A stretch of DNA of 64,000 nucleotides from an uncultured archaeon (lineage in GTDB: Archaea; Asgardarchaeota; Lokiarchaeia; Sigyniarchaeales; SOKP01), in NCBI GenBank assembly GCA_964486045.1, contig CAZALK010000011.1:32001-96000 (forward strand), written 5' to 3'. Under the pieces are notes generated by a model that did not search any database, had not been told where the DNA came from, and saw only the letters and a list, made by a program, of their open reading frames with translations. A program made the position numbers and the translations under genes. Below, piece after piece: positions 60,105 through 62,930 of this stretch (the first letter of the stretch is position 1; every line of letters begins with the position of its first letter).

Positions 60105-60848
60105 GTGAAAATTTTGAAAGAAACTATTGAAGAATTAATTAATAAAGCGAAATTTTTAACCGATCAAGAAAAATTTAAGGAAGCTGTTGAAATCCTTGAG
60201 GATTTATTTAAAACTAACCCTACTATTAAAAAAGTCCTTGTAGAAACCCTATTCATCTATGGTGGATATATAAATGATGAATATACCCTTCAATATGCTA
60301 AAGCAAAAGAAATATTTAAAAGAATTGTAGATATTGACCCTAATAATTATAGAGCACACTATAACCTTGGAATTGCTAATTTTAATTTAGAAAATATAGA
60401 ACAAGCAAAATTATGTTATGAAGAAGCGATTAAAATTAAACCAGATTACAAATACTGTTTTTATAATATGGGATTAATTTATGAGGGAGAAGGAAGTTTT
60501 CAAGAAGCTTTAAAATATTATGGGAAAGCATTAGAGATAGACCCTAAATTTTCTTATGCTCTAAATGCAAGAAATCATATCCTGACAGATTTAGAAAGTT
60601 TGAAAAACGGAAGTGAAAATATCAGACAACAGAAAAATCTAGACCAACTGAAATCATTACTTGAAATGTCTAAACGTATTAATATCGAGATGATTCAAAC
60701 CTTATTGAATCTTGAGAAGGAGAAATTGGTGAGGTTACTTATTGATTGGGGTGTGAGATACCAATTTGAGATTGATGGTGATTTTTTAATCATAAATAAA
60801 GATACTTTACCAGACTTAATAAAATCTTTTAATATTTTGGATTTATGA
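60105..60848 (+). CDS. TPR-repeat protein with C-terminal PCI-like winged helix
   Basis: TPRs (AHYNLG, CFYNMG, ALEIDP); C-terminal RINIEMIQTLLNL..LIDW..FEIDGDFL. Confidence 0.75.
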   Translation: MKILKETIEELINKAKFLTDQEKFKEAVEILEDLFKTNPTIKKVLVETLFIYGGYINDEYTLQYAKAKEIFKRIVDIDPNNYRAHYNLGIANFNLENIEQAKLCYEEAIKIKPDYKYCFYNMGLIYEGEGSFQEALKYYGKALEIDPKFSYALNARNHILTDLESLKNGSENIRQQKNLDQLKSLLEMSKRINIEMIQTLLNLEKEKLVRLLIDWGVRYQFEIDGDFLIINKDTLPDLIKSFNILDL

Positions 60849-60893
60849 CATTGCTACTAAGTAGAAGTCCTTTACGCTTTATTAAAAGAATTA

Positions 60894-61022
60894 TTATTTC
60901 GTTAATTTATTATGAATACTATAGCAGATGATGAATACTATAATGAGAATTACACCCCCAATGATATACTGGACAGTTGCGGGGTTACCCAGTAAATCTG
61001 CGAAAAGGTCAGATTGAAACAT
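60894..61022 (-). CDS. small single-TM protein (42 aa)
   Basis: Manual ORF MFQSDLFADLLGNPATVQYIIGGVILIIVFIICYSIHNKLTK. Confidence 0.55.
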   Translation of the reverse strand: MFQSDLFADLLGNPATVQYIIGGVILIIVFIICYSIHNKLTK

Positions 61023-61165
61023 AGAAAAATTTTATTAAAAGTTTTAAAGTCTTAATATTACTAGTCATATTTAAAATTTAACAATTGTTTTCATACGGAA
61101 ATTTCACCGTGAGATAAAAACGAATACACATAAAGAAAAAAAAAATAAATTGTAGTTAATAATTA

Positions 61166-61434
61166 TTATCTTTCCAATTGGAAGTTGACTTGAACTCTCA
61201 CTCTATTCACAAGCTACACGAAAAGTGTCTCTTTATATATGAGCTTGTCAACATCCTCTTTAACTTTAACGTCCGATTCAATTATCTGAATATTTCTAAT
61301 TCCACGTAAAGTTTTTTTAGCTTCTTCATATGCGTTTTTAGTTGAATAAAACATGAGTATTTTTATCCTTTAACCGCATCTGCCCAATTTTTTTCACTAG
61401 TTGATACTAATTGAATTGACTTATAAACTGGCAT
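61166..61434 (-). CDS. dodecin (flavin-binding), interrupted by two BHB introns; join(61434..61370, 61337..61235, 61204..61166)
   Basis: Spliced product MPVYKSIQLVSTSEKNWADAVKNAYEEAKKTLRGIRNIQIIESDVKVKEDVDKLIYRVRVQVNFQLER (68 aa) shows the dodecin pattern YK.I.LV.TS..W..A..A..TLR..YRV...F.L. AGTGA SD upstream. Confidence 0.88.
61205..61234 (-). other. 30-nt BHB intron 2 of dodecin gene
   Basis: GCUC-AUAU-AU^A-AAG..ACAC/GUGU..CUU-GUGA-AU^A-GAGU. Carries an in-frame TAG; removal gives LIYRVRV. Confidence 0.8.
61338..61369 (-). other. 32-nt BHB-type intron 1 of dodecin gene
   Basis: GGUU-AA^A-GGAUAAAA..UUUUAUUC-AACU-AA^A. Carries an in-frame TAA and shifts the frame; removal gives AVKNAY. Confidence 0.8.
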
Positions 61435-61646
61435 TCTAGATCACTTTTTTTTTAATATTTTTGGATGTTAATATGTTTTTTTGTAAGATAATTTGTTATA
61501 GGGTACTATTTAAATATTTCTTAGAAAACTCATAATCCTAAAAATTTATAATGAGAAAATATAATCTCATTGATATTATCTTAAATCTAGAAAAAATCAA
61601 AAAAAAAATTGAAAAGTGAATATAATTGTTATCAATAATTCAATGA

Positions 61647-62930
61647 TTAAGCGTCGAGGTTTTCGATTAATGTTGCGACACCCTGACCACCTCCGACACA
61701 AGCATTAGCAACGCCGTATTTTGCTTTCTTATCTTTAAGTATTCGTGCTAATGTGCCTGGTAATCTTACCATTGTTGAGCCCAACGGATGACCAATTGCT
61801 GTTGAGCCTCCCATTACGTTGACTCTCTCTTCTGGAATATTGAAAGCTTTCATACAATTTAATGCTACGATACAGAAAGCCTCGTTAATTTCCCAGTAAT
61901 CTATATCATCAGCAGTCAAACCAGCATATTTTAAAGCTTTTTCAGATGCAGGTACAGGACCTCTACCCATAACAGTGGGATCTACACCTGAAAAACCAAT
62001 TGAAACGATTCTAGCCATCGGCTCAATACCTCTTTGTTTTGCTTCTTCTGCTTCCATTAATAAACAAGCTGTTGCACCAGCATTCAATGGAGAGGAATTC
62101 CCTGCGGTGATAACTCCTTCCTTAGTGCCTTCTCGCTTCTCATAGCCCTCTTTTCCTCCATTTTGTTCTAAAAAGAATGGTCTTGATAACCTACGTAATC
62201 CTGCAACACCTTCTAAAGTAGATTTTCTTGCCGCCATATCCCTATCAATCATCATCTTTTCTTCAACATTTCCCTCAACATGACCTTCAATAGGAATAAT
62301 TTCACCTTTAAACCATCCTTTTTCAGTATTTTCTACTGTTAAATTATGAGCTCGCACACCAAATTTGTCCATATCTTCTTTGGTGAATGCAGGAACTTCT
62401 TGTTCATAAAGTTTTTGAGCTGTTTGAATCATATTACTTGTTGTCAAGAAGTCTTGCCGTGGGCGATACCATTCGCTCTTTTTATCGATTATTTTTAAGT
62501 TTGGAGTGATGTGTGTGTTTTGCATACTAACACGGGTCATATGCTCCACACCAGTTGATAATACACATTTACTAAATCCAGTCATGATTTCCATGATGCC
62601 CATATGCATCCCTGCTCCTGCGCTCCCACATTGTTTATCAAGAAACACTGAGGAAGCTCTAAATGGCATATCGGCTAAAAATGCAGGGGTTCTGCCGCCA
62701 TAACTCCAGTTTTCGCCAACACCCATTGCACTTCCAACAGTGATTTCATCGACATCCTCTTTAGTAATGCCCTTATCTGCAAGTTTTCCCTCAAAGAATT
62801 TTAATAATAGTGTGCCAAGAAGTTCATCTCCACGGATCTCGCCAAAAACATCACGTTCTGGTTGTCTTGGTCTGGATCGCGAAAAAGCGGTTCTCGCATA
62901 ATCAATCATCCATACTTCTTTTAAGTCCAT
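61647..62930 (-). CDS. acetyl-CoA C-acyltransferase (thiolase)
   Basis: KQCGSAG, GVEHM, TAGNSSPLNAGA, WEINEAF, GHPLG, CVGGGQG. Confidence 0.95.
   Translation of the reverse strand: MDLKEVWMIDYARTAFSRSRPRQPERDVFGEIRGDELLGTLLLKFFEGKLADKGITKEDVDEITVGSAMGVGENWSYGGRTPAFLADMPFRASSVFLDKQCGSAGAGMHMGIMEIMTGFSKCVLSTGVEHMTRVSMQNTHITPNLKIIDKKSEWYRPRQDFLTTSNMIQTAQKLYEQEVPAFTKEDMDKFGVRAHNLTVENTEKGWFKGEIIPIEGHVEGNVEEKMMIDRDMAARKSTLEGVAGLRRLSRPFFLEQNGGKEGYEKREGTKEGVITAGNSSPLNAGATACLLMEAEEAKQRGIEPMARIVSIGFSGVDPTVMGRGPVPASEKALKYAGLTADDIDYWEINEAFCIVALNCMKAFNIPEERVNVMGGSTAIGHPLGSTMVRLPGTLARILKDKKAKYGVANACVGGGQGVATLIENLDA

What the first reader, a model, noticed from the sequence alone, without database searches (positions are those of the whole stretch)
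61166..61434. Dodecin gene split by two tRNA-type bulge-helix-bulge introns (mRNA splicing in an Asgard archaeon)
Seen: the minus strand encodes a complete 68-aa dodecin only if two short inserts are removed (61369-61338, 32 nt; 61234-61205, 30 nt). Each insert is a hairpin containing an in-frame stop (TAA, TAG). Insert 2 forms a full BHB: outer GCUC/GAGU, 4-nt central AUAU/GUGA (one A.A mismatch, two U.G), two AUA bulges, inner AAG/CUU. Insert 1 forms a relaxed BHB: central GGUU/AACU, AAA bulge, 8-bp inner helix, enlarged 3' loop before AUGC/GCAU. Cutting after the second nucleotide of each bulge, the known EndA rule, restores the frame exactly in both cases. Established: archaeal EndA plus RtcB splice BHB introns in tRNA and rRNA; the classic protein-coding example is cbf5 in some Thermoproteota. 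Inference: this is a multi-intron mRNA in Lokiarchaeia that standard annotation would miss. Junctions can slide within the A/AT runs without changing the product.
Basis: partly seen in the sequence, partly recalled or inferred. Interest (0 to 1): 0.95.

Follow-up and report, generated by a model that had tools for sequence, protein, structure and literature searches.

The report
Dodecin gene split by two tRNA-type introns
A tiny flavin-storage (dodecin) gene of an Asgard archaeon is cut into three pieces by two ~30-base hairpins shaped like tRNA introns. Comparison with relatives shows the gene is still under strong selection, so its mRNA almost certainly has to be cut and rejoined, a process published so far for only one archaeal protein gene (cbf5).

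Summary
Observation confirmed. On the minus strand (61434-61166), removing 61369-61338 (32 nt) and 61234-61205 (30 nt) gives a 68-aa ORF that matches Pfam Dodecin end to end (E 3e-17). It is the only dodecin in this 99%-complete genome.

Interpretation supported, but without RNA proof.
- In the 54-genome genus plus metagenome contigs, most orthologs are uninterrupted.
- I found 17 distinct ~30-nt inserts at six sites of this 207-nt gene. Both window sites recur in other organisms.
- 16 of 17 inserts (6 of 6 sites) form a 4-bp exon:intron helix followed by a 3-nt bulge, in exactly the register where cutting after bulge nucleotide 2 restores the frame. A random placement does this 2.6% of the time.
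- Helices show compensatory changes, including exon-intron ones.
- Orthologs sharing an intron have dN/dS 0.03-0.06 with dS above 1, so these are not pseudogenes.
- Ribosome hopping fits only 8 of 17.
- The genome encodes a crenarchaeal-like two-paralog EndA and RtcB.
- The same stereotyped inserts split other genes in this genome, including the only RNA polymerase A' copy.
- No RNA run holds the locus.

This scan had already noted the same phenomenon on other Asgard DNA and elsewhere in this genome. In the searchable papers I found only cbf5 (coding sequence) and HVO_1309 (5' UTR).

The parts
61441..61444 (-). Shine-Dalgarno-like GUGA, 6 nt upstream of the start codon
   Evidence: Read. The same GTGA(A/T) block sits upstream of the ATG in the same-genus orthologs aligned. 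Its role in ribosome binding is inferred.
61370..61434 (-). Exon 1 of dodecin (ATG, codons 1-21 and the first two bases of codon 22)
61338..61369 (-). Intron 1, 32 nt, relaxed bulge-helix-bulge, inserted after CDS nt 65 (phase 2). Exon strand GGUU (61375-61372) pairs with intron AACU (61343-61340). The 5' bulge is AA|A (61371-61369). The inner helix is 8 bp (61368-61361 with 61351-61344) with a 9-nt loop. The 3' side is an A-rich 6-nt loop before the outer helix AUGC/GCAU (61379-61376 with 61333-61330). The intron holds an in-frame TAA.
   Evidence: Homologous introns at the same site occur in G013 and G068, with a compensatory U-A to C-G change in the central helix.
61235..61337 (-). Exon 2 (103 nt)
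61205..61234 (-). Intron 2, 30 nt, bulge-helix-bulge, inserted after CDS nt 168 (phase 0). The outer helix is GCUC/GAGU (61244-61241 with 61203-61200). The central helix is AUAU/GUGA (61240-61237 with 61210-61207; 3 of 4 pairs, or 4 of 4 in the register one base upstream). The bulges are AU|A (61236-61234) and AU|A (61206-61204). The inner hairpin is AAG-AG-ACAC, loop UUUUC, GUGU-AG-CUU. The intron holds an in-frame TAG.
   Evidence: Introns at the same site in metagenome loci L115, L123, L124 and L126 form a canonical motif with a perfect AUAU/AUAU helix.
61166..61204 (-). Exon 3 (12 codons plus the TAA stop)

Best explanation
The dodecin gene is a functional, three-exon gene. Its transcript carries two mini-introns (32 and 30 nt) of the archaeal bulge-helix-bulge type. 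In each, four exon bases just upstream of the 5' splice site pair with four bases near the intron's 3' end. This places a 3-nt bulge at each splice site, and the rest of the intron is a short hairpin.

Inferred steps: the cell's splicing endonuclease cuts after the second nucleotide of each bulge. This enzyme has two EndA paralogs, a catalytic one and one lacking the histidine, like the broad-specificity crenarchaeal (alpha-beta)2 enzyme. RtcB then joins the exons and probably circularises the introns. Only the spliced mRNA encodes the 68-aa dodecin.

Shown here: the gene anatomy, the motif geometry, its conservation with compensatory changes, purifying selection on the exons, and the presence of the enzymes' genes. 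The introns belong to a stereotyped class, typically 30 nt = 1 + 9-bp stem + 5-nt loop + 9 + 4 + 2. This class interrupts many protein genes of this genome and has entered the dodecin gene at six different sites within one genus.
For: (1) Splicing at the stated coordinates gives a full-length Dodecin match. It is the genome's only dodecin.
(2) 34 same-genus genomes gave one uninterrupted full-length match, 85-94% identical to the spliced product.
(3) 17 distinct inserts of 30-34 nt sit at six CDS sites (34, 47, 65, 143, 156, 168) in 10 genomes plus metagenome contigs. G067, like the window, carries two.
(4) 16 of 17 inserts, and 6 of 6 sites, have 4 of 4 central-helix pairs in the register where both cuts fall after bulge nucleotide 2. 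A random placement does so 2.6% of the time. All 17 hold in-frame stops.
(5) Covariation: at site 143 RNAalifold recovers the motif de novo, with 4 pairs changed on both sides. At site 65 the central pair U-A becomes C-G, between an exon third-codon base and an intron base. At site 168, 3 pairs are changed on both sides, and 91% of cells pair against 26-52% in slid registers.
(6) dN/dS is 0.03-0.06 with dS above 1 between orthologs that share an intron.
(7) The genome has EndA paralogs of 201 and 200 aa. The first is closest to the Aeropyrum pernix catalytic subunit (3p1z_B, E 1e-33) and the second lacks the catalytic His. RtcB scores 557 bits.
(8) The same insert type splits other genes of this genome at continuous Pfam profile positions: BcrAD_BadFG 1-135 | 137-271, thymidine-phosphorylase-like, two AIR-synthase-like genes and an AAA ATPase. 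It also splits RNA polymerase A' between GHFGH and IELARP, and an EF-2-like P-loop. In the genus the RpoA' motif is uninterrupted in 44 genomes. It is interrupted, with no second copy, in G000, G065 and G017, again with an exon-intron compensatory change (GGAC/GUCU to GGGC/GCCU).
(9) The inserts occur in contigs of other samples and studies.
Against: There is no RNA evidence for this organism: no spliced read and no circular intron. Folding energies of both inserts are within about 1.3 sd of shuffled sequence. The bare structural descriptor is not enriched genome-wide over a Markov background (4615 vs 4490 loci). The ORF-joining scan shows only modest excess over phase-shifted controls (30 vs about 20; 23 vs about 14). 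The class is therefore established by homology, not by motif counting. G013's intron-bearing ortholog begins with ATA instead of ATG.
Confidence: 0.85

Rival explanations
1. The gene is a decaying pseudogene, and the inserts are neutral insertions such as small mobile hairpins.
For: The unspliced frame stops after 23 codons. Hairpin energies are unremarkable. One intron-bearing ortholog (G013) has ATA in place of ATG.
Against: dN/dS is 0.03-0.06 at dS above 1 among orthologs that inherited the same insert. Apart from the inserts, the ten interrupted genes hold no frameshift or stop. The inserts always obey one splice geometry and keep their helices through compensatory changes. The same insert type sits in the single-copy RNA polymerase A' gene of three species.
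Confidence: 0.03
2. The inserts stay in the mRNA and are skipped by the ribosome, that is, programmed translational bypassing as in phage T4 gene 60 or the mitochondrial byp elements.
For: The inserts are hairpins with a stop codon soon after the 5' edge. For intron 1, an AAA take-off codon and an AAA landing codon exist 32 nt apart.
Against: Only 8 of 17 inserts have matching take-off and landing codons, all of them within A-runs. Window intron 2 (TAT vs AAT), G004, G031, the site-168 group and L121/L144 do not. At sites 47 and 143 (L121) the conserved residue is only created by joining bases from both sides of the insert. Bypassing does not explain the exon:intron 4-bp helix or its covariation.
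Confidence: 0.04
3. The inserts are removed from RNA, but by something other than EndA plus RtcB, for example another nuclease/ligase pair.
For: No enzyme assay exists. Intron 1's 3' site is not a canonical 3-nt bulge.
Against: The geometry is exactly that of EndA substrates: central helix 4 bp, 3-nt bulge, symmetric cut offset. The genome's catalytic EndA is closest to the crenarchaeal broad-specificity type, which published work credits with cleaving relaxed motifs (PMC5829648, PMC2724299 abstracts). A 30-nt RNA is far too small to be a group I or II ribozyme (established knowledge).
Confidence: 0.06
4. The inserts are an assembly or sequencing artefact.
For: The genome is a metagenome-assembled genome with 7.8% estimated contamination.
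Against: The source run's contigs match with 0 differences. Contigs from another sample (X2) and from two other studies (X3, X4) carry the inserts with their own substitutions. Homologous inserts are present in independently assembled genomes.
Confidence: 0.01

Closest known systems
cbf5 pre-mRNA intron of Crenarchaeota (Watanabe 2002; Yokobori 2009, PMC2738675)
   Same: A bulge-helix-bulge intron inside a protein-coding sequence. It is presumed or shown to be cut by the tRNA splicing endonuclease in organisms with a hetero-oligomeric, broad-specificity EndA, and it has been gained and lost among relatives.
   Different: The gene and the phylum differ (dodecin, Asgard). Here there are two introns in one 207-nt gene, six insertion sites within one genus, and a stereotyped ~30-nt size. 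The intron is one of many in the same genome rather than a single case. RNA proof exists for cbf5 but not here.
Archaeal tRNA and rRNA bulge-helix-bulge introns, including the heavily interrupted tRNA genes of Asgard archaea (PMC11291895; bioRxiv 10.64898/2026.10.13.758758)
   Same: The same motif (4-bp helix flanked by 3-nt bulges, cut after bulge nucleotide 2), the same enzymes, relaxed variants, and many independent gains.
   Different: The host RNA is an mRNA, so the exon strand of the central helix is constrained by codons. The covarying exon bases seen here are synonymous third positions.
HVO_1309 5'-UTR intron of Haloferax volcanii (PMC7714728)
   Same: An mRNA substrate of the splicing endonuclease, confirmed in vivo and in vitro in that paper.
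   Different: It lies in the 5' UTR, not in the coding sequence, so it does not have to restore a reading frame.
Translational bypass elements (T4 gene 60; mitochondrial byps)
   Same: Short hairpin inserts with stops inside otherwise intact genes.
   Different: Those need matched take-off and landing codons and stay in the mRNA. Here 9 of 17 inserts lack such codons, and all obey the splice geometry.

Membership tests
Archaeal bulge-helix-bulge (EndA-type) intron | A 4-bp central helix formed between the four exon bases ending 2 nt before the 5' cut and the four intron bases ending 2 nt before the 3' cut | tested here: met
   Intron 1 has GGUU/AACU, 4 of 4 pairs. Intron 2 has AUAU/GUGA, 3 of 4, or CAUA/UGUG, 4 of 4, one base upstream. 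16 of 17 dodecin introns reach 4 of 4, against 2.6% for random placement.
Archaeal bulge-helix-bulge (EndA-type) intron | Two 3-nt bulges on opposite strands, each closed by a flanking helix | tested here: inconclusive
   Both introns have a 3-nt 5' bulge closed by an inner helix. Intron 2 also has a 3-nt 3' bulge closed by GCUC/GAGU. Intron 1's 3' side is a 6-nt loop before AUGC/GCAU, that is, a relaxed motif. Orthologous site-168 introns are fully canonical.
Archaeal bulge-helix-bulge (EndA-type) intron | Cutting after nucleotide 2 of each bulge and joining the exons gives the functional product | tested here: met
   Doing so restores a 68-aa full-length Dodecin that is 88-94% identical to uninterrupted orthologs.
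Archaeal bulge-helix-bulge (EndA-type) intron | Structure maintained in evolution by compensatory changes | tested here: met
   Sample sizes are small (3-5 distinct sequences per site), so shuffle statistics are weak for site 65 (178/500) and better for site 168 (8/500).
Archaeal bulge-helix-bulge (EndA-type) intron | The host encodes the splicing endonuclease and the RtcB ligase | tested here: met
   There are two EndA-family genes (C7:36595-36819 and C10:137165-137410) and one RtcB (C1:512216-513523).
Archaeal bulge-helix-bulge (EndA-type) intron | The intron is absent from mature RNA: spliced junction, excised linear or circular intron | not testable with these tools
   No RNA run holding the locus was listed.
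Dodecin (Pfam PF07311) | Full-length match above the gathering score | tested here: met
   63 bits against a cut-off of 22.5, profile positions 1-64 of 64, spliced product only. The unspliced pieces score 17.8-19.7 bits, below the cut-off.
Programmed translational bypass element | Identical take-off and landing codons flanking the skipped stretch | tested here: not met
   Intron 2 has TAT vs AAT. 9 of 17 dodecin inserts lack matched codons.
Pseudogene | Relaxed constraint (dN/dS near 1, further lesions) | tested here: not met
   dN/dS is 0.03-0.06, and there are no other lesions in 10 interrupted orthologs.

The most novel reading that the evidence does not exclude
Asgard archaea of this genus carry a proliferating population of stereotyped ~30-nt endonuclease-spliced mini-introns that repeatedly invade protein-coding genes. 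Each intron recruits four upstream exon bases as one strand of its recognition helix. Small genes such as dodecin are hot spots (six sites, up to two introns per gene). Sites 65 and 143 share the same exon context GGUUAA and the same intron 3' end AACUAA, which hints at transposition to sequence-matched sites, for example by reverse splicing. This would be a protein-only (non-spliceosomal) route to intron-rich mRNAs in the archaeal lineage closest to eukaryotes.
Probability: 0.5. Interest if true: 0.92.

Novelty: new variant of a known kind. Interest (0 to 1): 0.85.

Why it matters
A 2020 paper in the searchable library (PMC7714728) counted one coding-sequence example of tRNA-type splicing in an archaeal mRNA (cbf5), plus one 5'-UTR case, and my three literature searches found no later one. 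Here a 207-nt gene carries two such introns, and its orthologs show six insertion sites in one genus. The same genome has them in essential genes such as RNA polymerase A'. Three consequences follow.

1. Standard annotation of these genomes miscalls many genes as broken or absent, so metabolic and "missing gene" inferences for Asgard archaea are affected.
2. mRNA maturation in these archaea must include an endonuclease and ligase step before or during translation. This raises the question of how translation of unspliced message is avoided in cells without a nucleus.
3. It gives a tractable system for studying how introns are gained. The system offers short introns, a known enzyme, and natural intron-plus and intron-minus alleles, in the prokaryotic lineage most relevant to the origin of eukaryotic gene structure.

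Tried and rejected
RNA evidence: the look-up of sequencing runs listed no RNA holder for the locus. I therefore say nothing about expression.

Folding energy: RNAfold z-scores of the two inserts are -1.1 to -1.6, which is not discriminating in 30% GC sequence.

Genome-wide motif counting:
- A loose descriptor plus ORF joining showed no excess over phase-shifted controls (908 vs 942-986; 751 vs 792-873).
- A strict descriptor with an A-rich bulge gave 7 vs 0-3.
- A hairpin-filtered version gave 30 vs about 20 and 23 vs about 14.
- The bare 30-nt architecture is not enriched over Markov-simulated sequence (4615 vs 4490).
- Motif counts therefore cannot size the intron population. I rely on homology-verified cases.

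tRNA introns: ARAGORN finds only 31 tRNAs, 20 of them with 'introns' of uncertain boundaries. I could not make a clean comparison of tRNA and mRNA intron architecture.

Rfam: there was no hit in 60800-61800.

Automatic nucleotide alignment misplaced several intron boundaries, and a first translation-guided script had an off-by-one-codon error. Both were corrected.

Literature: three full-text searches found no paper describing such introns in Asgard protein-coding genes. The library does not hold most subscription-journal papers.

Not done: I did not build a species tree, so the number of independent gains versus losses is inferred only from the six distinct positions.

Full report
THE OBSERVATION. 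The minus strand of 61434-61166 starts with ATG 6 nt downstream of a GUGA Shine-Dalgarno-like block and reads 23 codons before a TAA. Removing 61369-61338 (32 nt) and 61234-61205 (30 nt) produces a 207-nt ORF. Its 68-aa product matches Pfam Dodecin over the whole profile (positions 1-64 of 64, 63 bits against a cut-off of 22.5, E 3.2e-17). Unspliced, the pieces score below the cut-off, and the genome (5.18 Mb, 45 contigs, 99% complete) has no other dodecin. The junctions can slide in A or AT runs (5 and 4 equivalent placements) without changing the product.

Minimum-free-energy folding is not significantly better than shuffled sequence (z about -1.1 to -1.6). The hairpins by themselves would therefore not be evidence.

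The inserts are real DNA. Contigs from a second sample of the same study span the whole stretch. Contigs from two other studies cover intron 1 (61219-61403) and intron 2 (61176-61286) without gaps, each with its own substitutions.

COMPARISON WITH RELATIVES. The genus holds 54 species genomes, and I found dodecin in 45 of them (49 gave some match at E up to 1, but four of those are chance-level matches, E 0.2-0.9). 34 gave a single uninterrupted full-length match, 85-94% identical to the spliced window product, and they lack exactly the two inserts. Ten genomes carry inserts. Translation-guided mapping places them after these CDS nucleotides:
- 34: G031, 31 nt.
- 47: G004 and G067, 30 nt.
- 65: the window, G013 and G068, 32 nt.
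- 143: G074, G063 and G067, 31 nt.
- 156: G016, 30 nt; G066, 34 nt.
- 168: the window, 30 nt.

G067, like the window, has two introns. A metagenome scan added four contigs with a 30-nt intron at site 168 and four at site 143. Both of the window's intron positions therefore recur in other organisms. In total there are 17 distinct introns at six sites in a 207-nt gene.

GEOMETRY. In a true bulge-helix-bulge motif, each strand reads 5' to 3' as: central-helix strand, 3-nt bulge, flanking helix. The endonuclease cuts after bulge nucleotide 2 (established knowledge of EndA substrates). For an intron this predicts that the four exon bases ending 2 nt before the 5' cut pair with the four intron bases ending 2 nt before the 3' cut.
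- Among product-preserving placements, 16 of 17 introns (6 of 6 sites) have 4 of 4 such pairs. The remaining one has 3 of 4.
- A random placement in this genome has 4 of 4 pairs 2.6% of the time. Allowing for 1-9 equivalent placements per intron, six independent sites all passing is still expected well below 1e-5.
- Bulge 1 is AA|A in most introns. The rest of the intron is one hairpin, most often 9 bp with a 5-nt loop, which explains the modal length of 30 = 1+9+5+9+4+2.
- Window intron 1 fits with GGUU/AACU, AA|A, an 8-bp stem and a 9-nt loop. Its 3' side is a 6-nt A-rich loop before AUGC/GCAU, so the motif is relaxed.

CONSERVATION OF STRUCTURE.
- Site 143: RNAalifold on five distinct sequences recovers the central helix, the 3-nt bulge and the inner helix de novo. 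Four pairs are changed on both sides and kept.
- Site 65: the last central pair is U-A in the window and in G068, and C-G in G013. The exon partner is a synonymous third-codon base (GUU to GUC), and the intron partner changes A to G.
- Site 168: three inner-helix pairs changed on both sides, and 91% of cells pair against 26-52% in slid registers.
- Per-site samples are small, so the shuffle statistics are modest (178/500 and 8/500). The pattern is nevertheless consistent at every site.

SELECTION. Orthologs that share an intron diverged after gaining it. Their exons differ at 24-57 of 201 positions (24-47 for the pairs whose dS could be estimated) but at only 2-12 residues. dN/dS is 0.03-0.06 with dS above 1, where dS was estimable. 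Beyond the inserts, none of the ten interrupted genes has any other frameshift or stop. This rules out decay after insertion. The one blemish is an ATA in place of ATG in G013; G068 has GTG.

RIVAL: RIBOSOME HOPPING. All 17 inserts contain in-frame stops. Only 8 have identical take-off and landing codons, always AAA or GAA in purine runs. Window intron 2, G004, G031, G067 at site 47, the site-168 group and L121/L144 do not. In G004 (AA|U) and in L121 (AA|A replacing an unspliced AAU), the conserved residue exists only after joining bases across the insert. Hopping also does not predict the exon:intron helix.

MACHINERY. The genome has two EndA-family ORFs of 201 and 200 aa.
- The first keeps the Tyr/His/Lys catalytic residues. 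It is closest to the catalytic subunit of the Aeropyrum pernix heterotetramer (3p1z_B, E 1.4e-33).
- The second lacks the His, as a structural subunit would (the catalytic-residue reading is by eye).
[quoted passage not shown] That is what intron 1 would need.
- RtcB is present at 557 bits.

THE SAME INTRON CLASS ELSEWHERE IN THIS GENOME. A descriptor-plus-ORF scan was noisy (see Tried and rejected) but yielded cases I checked by homology. The exon halves hit continuous Pfam positions:
- BcrAD_BadFG 1-135 | 137-271 across a 27-nt insert.
- Glycos_trans_3N | Glycos_transf_3 11-253.
- AIRS | AIRS_C, twice.
- An AAA ATPase split after DEIDKAD.

Following leads from earlier notes of this scan, I confirmed two more. 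A 30-nt insert lies between GHFGH and IELARP of RNA polymerase A' (GGAC AU|U, 9-bp stem, 5-nt loop, GUCU AA|A). Another restores AHIDHGKTT in an EF-2-like gene.

A pattern search across the genus shows the RpoA' motif uninterrupted, once per genome, in 44 genomes. It is interrupted by a 30-nt insert, with no uninterrupted copy, in G000, G065 and G017. G017 shows the exon-intron compensatory change GGAC/GUCU to GGGC/GCCU. An essential single-copy gene cannot be a pseudogene in three species, so this class of insert must be removed at the RNA level.

WHAT IS KNOWN.
- PMC7714728 (2020) states that besides tRNA and rRNA, only the cbf5 mRNA intron of Crenarchaeota and their newly found 5'-UTR intron of HVO_1309 were known.
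- PMC2738675 describes cbf5 intron gain and loss.
- PMC11291895 and bioRxiv 10.64898/2026.10.13.758758 describe extreme tRNA intron loads in Asgard archaea but, in the passages I searched, not mRNA introns.
- Earlier notes of this scan report the same phenomenon in many other Asgard genomes, two of them with spliced reads in public RNA data, and at many places in this genome. Those notes are unchecked, apart from the two I re-tested.

VERDICT. The mechanism (EndA plus RtcB) is inferred from geometry, covariation, selection and gene content. It is not shown at the RNA level for this organism. The finding is a new variant of a known kind: the known tRNA-type splicing pathway acting on a multi-intron mRNA, as part of a dense and apparently mobile mini-intron population in an Asgard archaeon. 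Relatives of this genome are filed as Promethearchaeota MAGs, for example Loki_b32 in the same genus.

Noticed in passing
G000:C13:44101-44130 (+), outside the window: The only RNA polymerase A' copy is interrupted by a 30-nt intron between GHFGH and IELARP. The same insert occurs in G065 and G017 with an exon-intron compensatory change, and 44 other genus genomes are uninterrupted.
   Followed up: yes
G000:C13:92018-92047 (+): A 30-nt insert with stops splits the P-loop of an EF-2-like GTPase; removing it restores AHIDHGKTT. A second EF-2-like gene on C10 is uninterrupted, so which one is the essential EF-2 is open.
   Followed up: partly
G000:C7:54809-54835, C7:186723-186752, C5:195271-195300, C1:759271-759300, C3:187694-187725, C18:43552-43581, C3:186175-186204: More genes carry 27-32-nt inserts of the same architecture: a BcrAD/BadFG ATPase, a thymidine/AMP-phosphorylase-like gene, two AIR-synthase-like genes, an AAA ATPase, an unnamed gene, and a thiolase-like active site. 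The first five were checked by Pfam on the exon halves.
   Followed up: partly
Dodecin CDS sites 65 and 143 (window 61375-61369; L047, L050, L051, L121, L144): Two different insertion sites share the same exon context GGUUAA|A and the same intron 3' end AACUAA, although the intron interiors are unrelated. This hints at site choice by pairing, or at transposition between matching sites.
   Followed up: no
L031 (G013:C29) and L045 (G068:C11): The intron-bearing orthologs begin with ATA (G013) and GTG (G068) instead of ATG. ATA would be an unusual start codon.
   Followed up: no
L048/L049 (G075:C185 end, C299 start) and L052 (G062:C96 end): Assemblies break inside the dodecin gene, and in G075 the two contigs overlap (CDS nt 79-155). 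This may reflect intron-plus and intron-minus strain variation.
   Followed up: no
window 61149-61235, run X3: One 190-nt contig of another study joins 61149 to 61235, skipping 85 nt (exon 3 plus intron 2). Another contig stops fitting exactly at 61369, the 5' edge of intron 1. The relatives in that sample probably have different intron content.
   Followed up: no
whole genome G000: ARAGORN finds only 31 tRNA genes, 20 with predicted introns and several miscalled, in a 99%-complete genome. This is consistent with heavily interrupted tRNA genes.
   Followed up: partly
L209 (DATKTW010000099.1): A contig filed as 'Candidatus Nanopelagicaceae bacterium' encodes a dodecin 85% identical to the Asgard genus consensus, so it is probably a mis-binned Asgard contig.
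   Followed up: no
window 61647-62930 (-): The gene upstream of dodecin on the same strand is a 427-aa thiolase-like ORF, separated from it by a 212-nt AT-rich spacer.
   Followed up: no
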